A stretch of DNA of 64,000 nt from Escherichia coli O127:H6 str. E2348/69 (GTDB lineage: Bacteria; Pseudomonadota; Gammaproteobacteria; Enterobacterales; Enterobacteriaceae): assembly GCF_000026545.1 (NCBI RefSeq), contig NC_011603.1, one strand, 5' to 3'. The position numbers were made by a program. Shown piece by piece: positions 41,401 to 44,400 of the stretch. The first letter of the stretch is position 1. Each line of letters starts with the position of its first letter.

Positions 41401-44400
41401 GCCACATCCCGGGATTTCAGCGAGGCGTCTTCCCCGACGGCCTCCCGGATAGCCTGTGAGCGTCCGGAGAAGGCCTCCACCGGTACGCCCGGCATCTCCC
41501 ACATACCGTGCTTACCAACCACTTCCGTTTCATAGCCCAGCGCCTCAACCTGCTCTTTCAGTTTTTCCCGGTAGAGCCTGCCGAAGGCAATCTGATTAGC
41601 GTACACATTCTCAATGAACCCCGTTTTCCCCACTTTGTCACTGCTCAGTGTCTTCCACTCGCCGTTATGCTGCGTGACATTGGCCACTACCGCATGTGTG
41701 TGTAACTGTGGTTCCTGATCGCGACTGGTGTCGTGGTTAAACAGTGCCATCACCAGATTACCGGTCAGCACCGTTTCTGACTGTCCGTCCGTCATAACCC
41801 GTGTGGAAGCCAGCGCCTCCACCTGACGGACAGCAAAATCCACGGCCTGGTTATGTGCATCAATAAGACGTTTATCACCGCCTAACATGGCCATCACGGA
41901 GACACTTTTGGGGGCGGAGAAGGTCAGGTCGTAGCCGGGACGATGCTTATTACTGCCATCCTGCATGCGGCTTAAATCCGCTCCGTCCGGCAGCTTCCCC
42001 TCCAGAAGACGGGTAAAAACATCCTTATCGACGCTGCCCTGCAGCCCCAGCTGTTCAGCCCCCCTGCCGGCCCAGCGTTCTCCCATGCTGCCCAGCACAT
42101 AGTAATTATCCTTGTCGGTATAATAGTTACCGGCACTTCCGGCCGATCTGACCTGCGCGATACTCATCATAAACGTATATCCCTTTGACATATCCCGGTA
42201 TCAATCCCACAATGGATATACACAAGACATATCCACATAAGGAGGCAAATAATGGAAACCACCGTATTTTTCAGCAACCGCAGCCAGGCGGTCAGACTGC
42301 CAAAAGCGGTTGCATTGCCGGAAAACGTAAAACGCGTTGAAGTGATTGCTGTCGGACGAACCAGAATCATTACGCCAGCCGGAGAGACATGGGACGAATG
42401 GTTCGACGGACACAACGTCAGCGCCGATTTTATGGATAACAGGGAACAGCCCGGCATGCAGGAAAGGGAGTCATTCTGATGCTGAAGTTTATGCTCGATA
42501 CCAACATCTGCATTTTCACGATAAAGAACAAACCCGCCAGCGTCAGGGAGCGTTTTAACCTGAACCAGGGGAGAATGTGTATCAGTTCGGTCACCCTGAT
42601 GGAGCTGATATATGGTGCAGAAAAAAGCCAGATGCCTGAACGTAATCTCGCTGTGATCGAGGGATTTGTTTCCCGCATTGATGTTCTGGATTACGACGCT
42701 GCCGCAGCCACACACAGCGGCCAGATAAGAGCAGAACTTGCCCGTCAGGGACGCCCTGTCGGGCCATTTGATCAAATGATCGCAGGTCATGCCCGCAGTC
42801 GGGGACTGATTATTGTGACTAATAACACCCGGGAATTTGAACGTGTGGACGGTCTGAGAATTGAAGACTGGAGCTGACCTGTTCATCAGAAATCATCTCC
42901 CGGCTCAACATCCTCCCCGCGCTCCCGATGCACATTGATGTTCACCTCTTCACGACGCTGCATCTTCTGCTGGATATCCGGATTCTGCTCCCGTTGCCAT
43001 GCCTCATAAACGGCCATATCCACCACTTCACCGGATTCACTGATCCCGGGTGGCAGTTGCTGTTCCATCTCTTCTTCCGGTTTCATTTTCAGCTCCTGCT
43101 CGATCCCCCCTGCCGGAACATTCACACCTGCATCTGACTTCTTATCGTTGATGGCAGGAGACACCGGCTGTTGCGGCTGTTCAGCCTGAGTCACGTCTTC
43201 TCCGGAAACAACCTCCGGGACATCCGGTTCGAAGAGGCTGGCCATCTGACGACCTTCTGCTTCCCTTGCGGCAAGTACGGCACTCAGACGGTTCTCCATT
43301 TCCGGGTTGATGTCACGCGGAATAAACTCCGGAGCGACCTTCGGTCGTGTCTGATATTTCAGGGAGAGTTTTACTGCCGGATACGGTCCGGGCAGGGTGA
43401 CATAACAGGTCAGATCCGGCAGAGACTGAATGTCGGAATAACTGACCAGCGTCTGACGCTCCATATCCTTACCGGTCGATACCCCGTCACGTACCGGATC
43501 AGCACCGTAGGAATACTGCTCGCTGGCTTTCAGGTGCTCTTTCTCACCAATTTCACCGGCAGCGAACTCTGCAATCTTATGGCTGGGAGAACGGAAAAAG
43601 GCACGGGTGTTCATGACGTCAAACAGCGTGGCAGCCGCTTTCTCACCGTAGATATCTTCCAGCTGGGCATAGGACTGGATACCAAACACATAACAGCCAC
43701 CGAACTTACGGGCTTCCGGCAGGATCTCCACCAGGTCCGGCAGTTTGTGTAACGTGGGTAACTCGTCACAGAAAAACCACACACGACGGTTACGGTTTTC
43801 TCCCATTGCCAGCAGACCACGAATAGCAATGGACAGCCACATGGAGATCACCGGCTTCAGGGAGGCATGGGTGTCGGCGTTCGACGAAATAAACAGCCAG
43901 CCGTTTTTCTGATCTTCCCGGACACCACGCATCCAGTCACGGATGGTGAAGGGCTCACCGTTATGCTCAATCCCCTGCAGGTAACGGATGGCTTTCACGT
44001 AGTTGGTCAGCACAGCACGGATGGATATGGCCGTTTTCTCGATTTTCTCTTCCACCAGGTTGGCCGCCGGTGAATTACGCAGGAAGGTACGCAGCTTTTC
44101 AATTTTGATGGAAAGCAGTGTGTCCACCAGTTTGCTGTAGCTGCGGTTGGGGTCATTACGCATCAGGTATGCCGCTTCCGCAAAAATGGTACGTCCTGAA
44201 CCCTGCCAGAACGGGTCCTCTTTTGTCCCCATCGGGATCAGAGTATTTGCGGTATTATCAAAATCTGGCTGTGTCAGGCACTCCTTCCACAAATCCCAGG
44301 CAGCACAGCGTGCATCCAGCGGATTCAGGATTTTATCGATGGAGGGATCATAGTAACTTTTAACAAATTCCCCCGAACGGTCATAAATCACCACCATATC

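What the first reader, a model, noticed from the sequence alone, without database searches (positions are those of the whole stretch)
42192..42885. vapBC (mvpAT-like) module occupies the traD-traI interval on the opposite strand
F carries trbH between traD and traI; here that slot holds a PIN-domain toxin-antitoxin pair transcribed against the tra operon. Transcription convergent with traI could influence tra operon read-through, and the position ties plasmid addiction to the transfer region. I believe this arrangement occurs on other F-like virulence plasmids, so it is notable rather than new.
Basis: partly seen in the sequence, partly recalled or inferred. Interest (0 to 1): 0.3.

Follow-up and report, generated by a model that had tools for sequence, protein, structure and literature searches.

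The report
vapBC addiction module inside F's "trbH"
The traD-traI gap of this EPEC plasmid holds an ordinary, already described VapBC toxin-antitoxin pair, exactly as plasmid F does, and the old "trbH" gene is only the open frame on the opposite strand of the same DNA, a frame that seems to be kept open on purpose.

Summary
vapB (42252-42479, +) and vapC (42479-42877, +) fill the traD-traI interval, opposite to the tra operon, which runs on the minus strand. They are 97-98% identical to the structurally solved Shigella VapBC/MvpAT and show strong purifying selection (dN/dS about 0.05).

The contrast with F is wrong. F carries the same module in the same slot. F's 239-codon trbH is the antisense frame of this DNA, and it is intact here (42167-42886, -, 92% identical to F TrbH). 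The geometry is also misstated: vapBC is head-on with traD and divergent from traI.

The arrangement is published and occurs in about 1,170 to 1,270 PLSDB plasmids, so the finding is already known.

One extra result may be new. In five lineages of traD-traI vapBC whose synonymous sites are saturated, the trbH frame has no stop codons, against about 11.8 expected. In each, its ATG overlaps the traD stop and its stop overlaps the traI ATG. In 62 vapBC loci outside tra operons the same frame averages 3.7 stops. The trbH amino-acid sequence itself is unconstrained. This suggests a translated "bridge" frame that relays ribosomes from traD to traI. It is not experimentally tested.

The parts
42252..42479 (+). 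vapB antitoxin gene (75 aa, AbrB/MazE-type N-terminus). Shine-Dalgarno AGGAGG at 42240-42245.
   Evidence: NCBIfam TA_anti_VapB 3e-32. 73/75 identical to Shigella VapB chain 6SD6_A.
42479..42877 (+). vapC toxin gene (132 aa PIN-domain endoribonuclease). Its start overlaps the vapB stop.
   Evidence: PIN 1.9e-21; PRK13725 3.4e-87. 129/132 identical to Shigella VapC (6SD6, 3TND). D7, E42, D98 and E119 are present and invariant in alignment A1.
42185..42213 (+). Predicted sigma-70 promoter of vapBC: TTGACA, 17-nt spacer, CACAAT (10 of 12 matches).
   Evidence: This is a consensus match only.
42175..42235 (.). Putative VapBC operator: four ATATCC/GGATAT half-sites. Inverted repeats 42175-42185/42211-42221 and 42213-42219/42229-42235. 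Overlaps the promoter and, on the other strand, the traI ribosome-binding region.
   Evidence: The motif is conserved in all aligned homologues. Autoregulation through inverted repeats is reported for Shigella vapBC (preprint read).
42167..42886 (-). 'trbH' ORF: 239 codons on the tra strand, fully antisense to vapBC. The frame is codon-aligned with vapC and shares wobble positions with vapB.
   Evidence: 220/239 identical to F TrbH. No Pfam, NCBIfam or PDB match. dN/dS 0.8-1.2.
42884..42888 (-). TGATG overlap of the traD stop (42888-42886) and the trbH ATG (42886-42884). Preceded by GGGAG, the same initiation region that serves traI in plasmids without the module.
42167..42170 (-). ATGA overlap of the traI ATG (42170-42168) and the trbH stop TGA (42169-42167).
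42171..42886 (.). 716-bp segment absent from F-like plasmids in which the traD stop and traI start overlap directly (TGATG). Bounded by a 4-bp TCAT repeat.
42886..45039 (-). traD (coupling protein), the upstream neighbour on the tra strand.
36900..42170 (-). traI (relaxase/helicase), the downstream neighbour on the tra strand.

Best explanation
The interval holds a functional type II toxin-antitoxin operon, vapBC. It is the orthologue of Shigella mvpAT/vapBC and Salmonella pSLT vapBC2, at the same position as in plasmid F.

Inferred mechanism, by 97-98% identity to the characterised Shigella proteins:
- VapC is a PIN endoribonuclease that cuts initiator tRNA(fMet) and stops translation initiation.
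- VapB binds and neutralises VapC.
- The complex represses its own promoter through the ATATCC/GGATAT repeats at 42175-42235.
- Cells that lose the plasmid lose the labile VapB and are arrested by VapC. This stabilises the plasmid.

The 239-codon 'trbH' of the F literature is the antisense reading frame of this same DNA and is intact here. Its amino-acid sequence evolves freely, so it is not a conserved protein. The frame itself, however, appears to be kept open and is joined stop-to-start to traD and traI. The most likely reason is that ribosomes leaving traD translate across the insert and reinitiate at traI. This would restore the direct traD-traI coupling seen in plasmids that lack the module. 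That last step is inferred only.
For: Identity of the module:
- Pfam and NCBIfam hits.
- VapC is 129/132 and VapB 73/75 identical to solved Shigella VapBC structures.
- The catalytic residues D7/E42/D98/E119 are present.

Coding strand:
- Window versus Salmonella gives dN/dS 0.057 (vapB) and 0.045 (vapC), with substitutions concentrated at third positions.
- The trbH frame gives 0.82 overall and 2.7 over vapC.

Same arrangement in F and relatives:
- RefSeq vapB/vapC lie between traD and traI in F, and the trbH ORF lies on the other strand.
- Shigella pINV is colinear with window 38235-43045 at 95.9%.

Published statements:
- vapBC2ST is 'encoded within the trbH gene', stabilises pSLT 5.5-fold and is orthologous to mvpAT, whose toxin cleaves initiator tRNA (PMC5065971).

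Open frame:
- There were no antisense stops in any of the 12 traD-traI-slot loci scored for this frame. They fall into five lineages with pairwise synonymous difference pS of at least 0.66.
- Resampling synonymous codons with each plasmid's own tra codon usage gives P(open) of 0.083, 0.28, 0.17, 0.065 and 0.010. The joint probability is about 2.5e-6. About 11.8 stops are expected and none is observed.
- 62 vapBC loci outside tra operons average 3.7 stops. Only 2 have zero, both with GC3 of at least 0.69.
- In every lineage the ORF's ATG overlaps the traD stop and its stop overlaps the traI ATG.
- Plasmids without the module have a direct traD-TGATG-traI junction.
Against: - No experiment on this plasmid was available. 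Toxin activity, plasmid stabilisation and operator binding are all inferred from homologues.
- For the open-frame part, the null model depends on the chosen codon usage, and the lineages share ancestry.
- The other antisense gene inside the F tra operon (artA-like, 52273-52587) has no bridging ORF on the tra strand. The operon therefore tolerates an untranslated gap of about 400 nt elsewhere.
- vapBC copies in other tra slots are not always open: one stop each in L012, L026 and L096.
- From my own knowledge, the F tra operon depends on RfaH anti-termination. That would reduce any need for protection against polarity.
Confidence: 0.85

Rival explanations
1. One reading: F has a different gene (trbH) in this slot, and this plasmid has replaced it with a TA module. 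The arrangement would then be a variant of the F layout.
For: Older annotations name the interval trbH. One example is pOU7519, which is 85% identical over the same DNA.
Against: F itself carries vapB/vapC here. The F trbH ORF and the window ORF are the same antisense frame, 220/239 identical. The interval aligns end to end with F.
Confidence: 0.02
2. trbH is a chance 'shadow' ORF. Over vapC the antisense frame is codon-aligned, so stops can arise only from the rare codons TTA, CTA and TCA. Its openness would then need no selection.
For: The frame relation is exactly the stop-poor one. For a single lineage P(open) is not small, 0.08-0.3. The trbH amino-acid sequence is unconstrained. vapBC dS is not clearly lower than in flanking genes.
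Against: Five synonymously saturated lineages are all open, with joint probability about 2.5e-6. The Edwardsiella copy expects 4.2 stops and has none. E. coli chromosomal vapBC is closer in protein sequence to the F type than the Pantoea type is, yet it has 2-4 stops. Start and stop overlaps are conserved at both ends even where the junction sequences differ.
Confidence: 0.12
3. TrbH is a real, functional tra protein encoded antisense to vapBC, making this a true overlapping gene pair.
For: The ORF is conserved, has a good initiation region inherited from traI (GGGAG, 10 nt, ATG) and is open in all lineages.
Against: - dN/dS is about 1.
- Length varies: 239, 250, 260 and 272 aa. The parts not overlapping vapBC are unrelated between lineages.
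- No family, domain or structural match was found.
- About 3,000 F-like plasmids, including conjugative ones, lack it entirely.
- From my own knowledge, F trbH insertion mutants were reported transfer-proficient (Maneewannakul and Ippen-Ihler 1993). That paper was not held.
Confidence: 0.1
4. The main significance is regulatory antisense interference. Head-on vapBC transcription, or promoter-bound VapBC, would throttle read-through into traI. Alternatively, tra-operon transcription would lower VapB synthesis and link transfer to toxin activation.
For: - The two transcripts must be fully complementary. Only 8 nt separate the vapC and traD stops, and no terminator-like site lies between them.
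- The operator overlaps the traI ribosome-binding region on the DNA.
- vapBC has entered F-type tra operons head-on at three or more different slots.
- An antisense 'as-trbH' transcript is mentioned for Shigella.
Against: No expression data were available here. This idea does not exclude the other explanations, and it does not by itself explain why the antisense frame stays free of stop codons.
Confidence: 0.2

Closest known systems
Shigella pINV MvpAT / VapBC (PDB 3TND, 6SD6)
   Same: VapC is 129/132 and VapB 73/75 identical. The bicistronic layout and ATATCC operator repeats match. The position is also the same: pINV is colinear with window 38235-43045, covering traI, vapBC and the last ~160 bp of traD.
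   Different: In pINV the tra region is decayed, with traD truncated by an IS3-family element. Here the tra operon is intact. There are a few substitutions: VapC S80, D124 and I128; VapB F7 and N54. VapC has R32 as in 6SD6, not K32 as in 3TND.
Salmonella pSLT VapBC2(ST)
   Same: Same slot, same orientation, same overlapping trbH frame. About 85-88% nucleotide identity and 95% VapC protein identity. It is reported to stabilise pSLT and is described as 'encoded within the trbH gene'.
   Different: Different plasmid backbone. Synonymous divergence dS is about 0.65.
Plasmid F traD-trbH-traI region
   Same: Identical architecture. vapB/vapC lie on the anti-tra strand, with a 239-codon trbH on the tra strand. 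The TGATG and ATGA overlaps are the same. The interval differs from F by about 3% (24 substitutions in the 717-bp trbH frame).
   Different: Only point substitutions: 4 in VapC, 3 in VapB and 19 in the trbH frame.
F-like plasmids without the module (R100-like, pC053_NDM5)
   Same: Same traD and traI. The same GGGAG...TGATG initiation region lies at the end of traD.
   Different: The traD stop overlaps the traI start directly. The 716-bp module is absent. This applies to about 72% of the PLSDB records that share the flanks.
artA, the other anti-tra-strand gene inside the F tra operon
   Same: A small gene transcribed against the tra operon, between two tra genes (window 52273-52587, between trbA and traQ).
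   Different: It is not a TA module, and no tra-strand ORF bridges it.

Membership tests
Enteric VapBC (MvpAT) type II toxin-antitoxin | The toxin is a PIN-domain protein with the conserved acidic residues D7, E42, D98 and E119. | tested here: met
   Pfam PIN 1.9e-21. NCBIfam PRK13725 289 bits against a cut-off of 143. The residues are present and invariant in A1.
Enteric VapBC (MvpAT) type II toxin-antitoxin | An AbrB/MazE-fold antitoxin gene lies immediately upstream, in one operon, with a stop/start overlap. | tested here: met
   NCBIfam TA_anti_VapB 110.6 bits against a cut-off of 60. The Pfam MazE_antitoxin hit is 24.4 bits, just under the 24.7 cut-off. The TGATG overlap is at 42477-42481.
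Enteric VapBC (MvpAT) type II toxin-antitoxin | Near-identity to experimentally characterised members. | tested here: met
   97.7% (VapC) and 97.3% (VapB) identity to Shigella chains 6SD6 and 3TND.
Enteric VapBC (MvpAT) type II toxin-antitoxin | An autoregulatory operator of inverted repeats overlaps the promoter. | tested here: inconclusive
   Inverted repeats and a 10/12 promoter match were found at 42175-42235. Binding was not tested.
Enteric VapBC (MvpAT) type II toxin-antitoxin | Cleavage of initiator tRNA(fMet), and plasmid stabilisation by post-segregational arrest. | not testable with these tools
   Reported for homologues (PMC5065971). No data exist for this plasmid.
Enteric VapBC (MvpAT) type II toxin-antitoxin | Purifying selection on both proteins. 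| tested here: met
   dN/dS 0.057 and 0.045 against the Salmonella copy.
F tra-operon gene trbH | An ORF of about 239 codons on the tra strand between traD and traI, homologous to F trbH. | tested here: met
   42167-42886 (-), 239 codons, 220/239 identical to F.
F tra-operon gene trbH | Encodes a protein whose sequence is under selection. | tested here: not met
   dN/dS 0.8-1.2. No Pfam, NCBIfam or PDB relatives. Variable length and unrelated non-overlapping ends between lineages.
F tra-operon gene trbH | The reading frame is maintained (no stops) and translationally linked to its neighbours. | tested here: met
   No stops in five saturated lineages against about 11.8 expected. Stop/start overlaps at both ends.
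F tra-operon gene trbH | A product is detected, or the gene is required for transfer. | not testable with these tools
   The 1993 mutant paper (PMC193242) is not held.

The most novel reading that the evidence does not exclude
'trbH' is neither a protein-coding gene in the usual sense nor a chance shadow ORF. It is a selected 'bridge' reading frame. vapBC entered the translationally coupled traD-TGATG-traI junction head-on. The plasmid has since kept the 240-270 codons antisense to the toxin-antitoxin genes free of stops, starting at the former traI initiation site and ending on the traI ATG. Ribosomes from traD would then translate across the insert and reinitiate at traI. This would preserve coupled TraD/TraI synthesis, protect the operon mRNA from Rho-dependent polarity, or limit pairing with the complementary vapBC mRNA. 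Selection would act on translation of the frame, not on its product. It would also constrain the synonymous codon choice of a toxin-antitoxin pair from the opposite strand.
Probability: 0.5. Interest if true: 0.5.

Novelty: already known. Interest (0 to 1): 0.25.

Why it matters
As posed, the finding matters little. vapBC in the traD-traI interval is annotated by RefSeq in F itself, is reported in the literature (2015, 2016) and is present in over a thousand sequenced plasmids.

The practical point concerns annotation. 'trbH' and vapBC are two names for the two strands of one segment. Surveys that score TrbH presence from annotations (8% of MOBF12 plasmids in PMC5102898) are probably measuring annotation habits rather than biology.

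The side result would matter more if confirmed. It would answer what trbH is, a small question open for about 30 years. It would also give a clean natural example of selection for an open, translated frame without selection on the encoded protein. Finally, it would show how a conjugative operon accommodates a head-on insertion without uncoupling its relaxase gene.

Tried and rejected
- The trbH-frame protein had no match in Pfam or NCBIfam, and no meaningful match in PDB sequences (best E=0.17).
- Rfam (E-value mode) on 41900-43200 gave only a sub-threshold snoRNA hit, which I take as chance.
- A single-lineage synonymous resampling gave P(open)=0.09. I first took this as showing a chance shadow ORF. 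I revised that view after collecting independent lineages.
- I looked for a general 'bridge ORF' rule at the other antisense gene of the tra operon (artA-like, 52273-52587). None is there. The anti-polarity argument is therefore not general.
- I tested whether vapBC synonymous sites are depressed relative to the flanking traD and traI, which would indicate a constrained TrbH protein. The result is a slight, inconsistent difference: dS 0.63-0.73 against 0.81-0.94 in one pair, and no depression in another.
- F under accession AP001918 is not in the collections. NC_002483 was used instead.
- Maneewannakul and Ippen-Ihler 1993 (PMC193242) is not held.
- Literature searches for trbH plus translational coupling found no prior statement of the bridge-frame idea. 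Absence from this library is not proof of novelty.
- No minus-strand promoter-like site for traI was found in 41900-43200 by the simple scan.
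Full report
**What is there.**
The tra operon of this window runs on the minus strand. traD is 42886-45039 and traI is 36900-42170, with the true start MMSIAQ at 42170. Two plus-strand genes lie between them:
- vapB, 42252-42479, 75 aa.
- vapC, 42479-42877, 132 aa. Its ATG overlaps the vapB stop.

VapC matches Pfam PIN (1.9e-21) and the NCBIfam model 'tRNA(fMet)-specific endonuclease VapC' (289 bits, cut-off 143). VapB matches NCBIfam TA_anti_VapB (110.6 bits, cut-off 60). VapC is 129/132 and VapB 73/75 identical to the crystallised Shigella VapBC proteins (6SD6, 3TND). The four PIN acidic residues D7, E42, D98 and E119 are present and invariant among diverged homologues.

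Upstream of vapB there is a 10/12 sigma-70 match: TTGACA at 42185-42190, a 17-nt spacer, and CACAAT ending at 42213. It is interleaved with four ATATCC/GGATAT half-sites forming inverted repeats. These are conserved in F and Salmonella copies.

**Source of the window.**
The window is identical to the EPEC adherence-factor plasmid pMAR7 (NC_010862) from 20195 to 64000. Upstream it is offset by 4,954 bp, which corresponds to the Tn3-family/TEM-2 element that pMAR7 carries. The window is therefore a pMAR2-type EAF plasmid.

**Which strand codes.**
A 239-codon ORF on the tra strand (42167-42886) covers the same DNA. I compared the window with a Salmonella pSLT-type copy at 85% identity:
- vapB and vapC give dN/dS of 0.057 and 0.045, with substitutions concentrated at third positions.
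- The antisense frame gives 0.82 overall and 2.7 over vapC. There its first position is the vapC wobble position.
- The antisense protein has no Pfam or NCBIfam match and no meaningful PDB match.

vapBC is therefore the conserved coding content.

**The contrast with F is false.**
RefSeq annotates vapB and vapC between traD and traI of F itself, on the anti-tra strand. F's 239-aa trbH ORF is the antisense frame of that DNA. The window's ORF is 220/239 identical to it. pOU7519 annotates the homologous DNA as trbH. What it refutes is the either/or premise, not the TA module.

The geometry also needs correcting. The vapBC promoter abuts the traI start and fires towards the traD 3' end. The module is therefore head-on with traD and operon transcription, and divergent from traI. 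Only 8 nt separate the vapC and traD stop codons, and there is no terminator-like site between them. The two transcripts must be complementary.

**How common it is, and how well known.**
- Of 4,181 PLSDB records sharing the flanks, 1,165 carry the whole interval.
- 1,269 records hold at least 80% of vapBC. These are mainly Escherichia, Salmonella and Shigella.
- The remaining records have the traD stop overlapping the traI start directly (…TTC TGATG…). Relative to them the module is a 716-bp indel bounded by TCAT.
- Shigella pINV is colinear with window 38235-43045 at 95.9%, so mvpAT sits in the same slot, now decayed.
- A 2016 paper says vapBC2ST is 'encoded within the trbH gene', stabilises pSLT 5.5-fold and is orthologous to mvpAT, whose toxin cleaves initiator tRNA (PMC5065971).
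- A 2025 preprint calls trbH an antisense transcript of unknown function.

The finding as posed is already known.

**Mechanism.**
By near-identity to the characterised systems, I infer the following:
1. VapC cleaves initiator tRNA(fMet).
2. VapB neutralises VapC, and the complex represses the promoter through the inverted repeats.
3. Plasmid-free segregants lose VapB and are arrested by VapC.

The sequence features are shown here. The activities are not.

**An extra result: the trbH frame looks deliberately open.**
Over vapC the antisense frame is codon-aligned, so stops can arise only from TTA, CTA or TCA codons. Resampling synonymous codons with the plasmid's own tra codon usage gave P(open)=0.08-0.09 for this plasmid. 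That alone is compatible with chance.

I then collected 80 VapC loci from one-genome-per-species contigs, plus further plasmids. The results:
- In 62 vapBC loci outside tra operons, the same frame has a mean of 3.7 stops. It has zero stops in only two loci, both with GC3 of at least 0.69. E. coli chromosomal copies have 2-4 stops.
- None of the traD-traI-slot loci scored for this frame has a stop. They are the window, F, Shigella, Salmonella pSLT-type, S. Poona, three Pantoea loci, an Enterobacter MAG, Serratia pQE21 and Edwardsiella. A near-identical E. coli plasmid (L006) is also open.
- One exception in form is pOU7519. Its 1-bp insertion in vapB shortens trbH to 229 codons, ending 7 nt before traI.
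- The scored loci fall into five lineages with pairwise synonymous differences of 0.66-0.85, which is saturated.
- Their individual P(open) values are 0.083, 0.28, 0.17, 0.065 and 0.010. The joint probability is about 2.5e-6. About 11.8 stops are expected and none is observed.
- In each lineage the ORF's ATG overlaps the traD stop (TGATG or TAATG), and its stop overlaps the traI ATG (ATGA or TGATG). This holds although the junction sequences differ.
- The ORF's initiation region (GGGAG, 10 nt, ATG) is the one that serves traI in plasmids without the module.
- In the Pantoea type, a ~17-bp copy of the traD 3' end precedes traI. This points to insertion into the coupled junction with duplication of it.
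- vapBC synonymous rates are not clearly lower than those of the flanking traD and traI. Lengths and non-overlapping ends of the ORF differ between lineages. The constraint is therefore on openness, not on the protein.

My preferred reading is a translated bridge frame that relays ribosomes from traD to traI.

**Caveats to that reading.**
- The null model depends on the codon usage assumed, and ancestry is shared.
- The artA-like antisense gene (52273-52587) has no bridging ORF.
- vapBC copies in other tra slots are only sometimes open. In the traF-trbB slot two are open and two have one stop. Of the two loci distal to traX, one is open and one has one stop. In a rearranged E. albertii plasmid the frame has two stops.
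- From my own knowledge, the F tra operon uses RfaH anti-termination, which lessens a polarity argument.

**Verdict.**
The claimed difference from F does not exist, and the convergence statement is misdirected. Novelty is 'already known'. The only potentially new element is the evidence that the trbH frame is maintained as an open, doubly coupled frame. That can be tested directly with vapBC-synonymous stop mutations.

Noticed in passing
window 52273-52587 (+), between trbA (52589-52936, -) and traQ (51908-52192, -): A second gene transcribed against the tra operon, a 104-aa hydrophobic 'hypothetical protein' in the position of F artA. Unlike vapBC, no tra-strand ORF bridges it, which leaves a gap of about 400 nt apparently untranslated in the operon.
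   Followed up: partly
L012, L026, L028, L058 (traF-trbB slot); L095, L096 (distal to traX); L099 (between DUF2726/traT and traD): vapBC homologues have entered F-type tra operons head-on at three or more other positions, in Klebsiella, Enterobacter, Pantoea, Erwinia, Salmonella and E. albertii plasmids. The antisense frame is open in some (L028, L058, L095) and has one or two stops in others.
   Followed up: partly
L011 1368-1400 and 2120-2150 (Pantoea agglomerans plasmid); same in L018 and L094: A ~17-bp copy of the traD 3' end and junction (GGAGGrTACATyTGATG) is repeated just before traI. The bridge ORF therefore ends with the same residues (GGYI) and stop as TraD. This looks like a footprint of insertion into the traD/traI junction. 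L095 carries a similar junction remnant although its module lies distal to traX.
   Followed up: partly
L002 (pOU7519, EU219534), about 1775-1785: A 1-bp insertion relative to all other copies frameshifts vapB. The depositors annotated the opposite strand as a 229-aa trbH. This could be a sequencing error or a decayed module.
   Followed up: no
window 1-20199 compared with pMAR7: The window matches pMAR7 exactly but lacks the Tn3-family/TEM-2 element of about 4.95 kb (window 4955-20199 = record 4955-20199; window 20195-64000 = record 25149-68954). The window is therefore the transposon-free pMAR2-type EAF plasmid.
   Followed up: partly
window 29608-30143 (-) and 32811-32960 (-): Two further addiction modules lie on the same plasmid segment: a RelE/ParE-Phd/YefM pair, and a Hok/Gef gene next to the IncFII replicon. 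The window therefore holds three addiction systems.
   Followed up: no
window 33149-34522 (+) and 35215-36075 (-): An ISEc13 (IS4-like) copy sits between the hok region and finO. An alpha/beta-hydrolase gene sits between traX and finO at the distal end of the tra region.
   Followed up: no
L013, L014 (E. coli chromosome, purC-side locus): The chromosomal E. coli vapBC is closer in protein sequence to the F-type module (dN 0.08) than the Pantoea traD-traI module is (dN 0.15). The traD-traI slot may therefore have been filled more than once, or the module may have been exchanged by recombination.
   Followed up: no
PMC5102898 (literature): A comparative study scored TrbH as the least conserved tra protein, present in 8% of MOBF12 plasmids, using annotated proteins. 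In PLSDB about 28% of plasmids sharing the flanks carry the segment. The low figure may therefore reflect whether annotators called trbH or vapBC.
   Followed up: no
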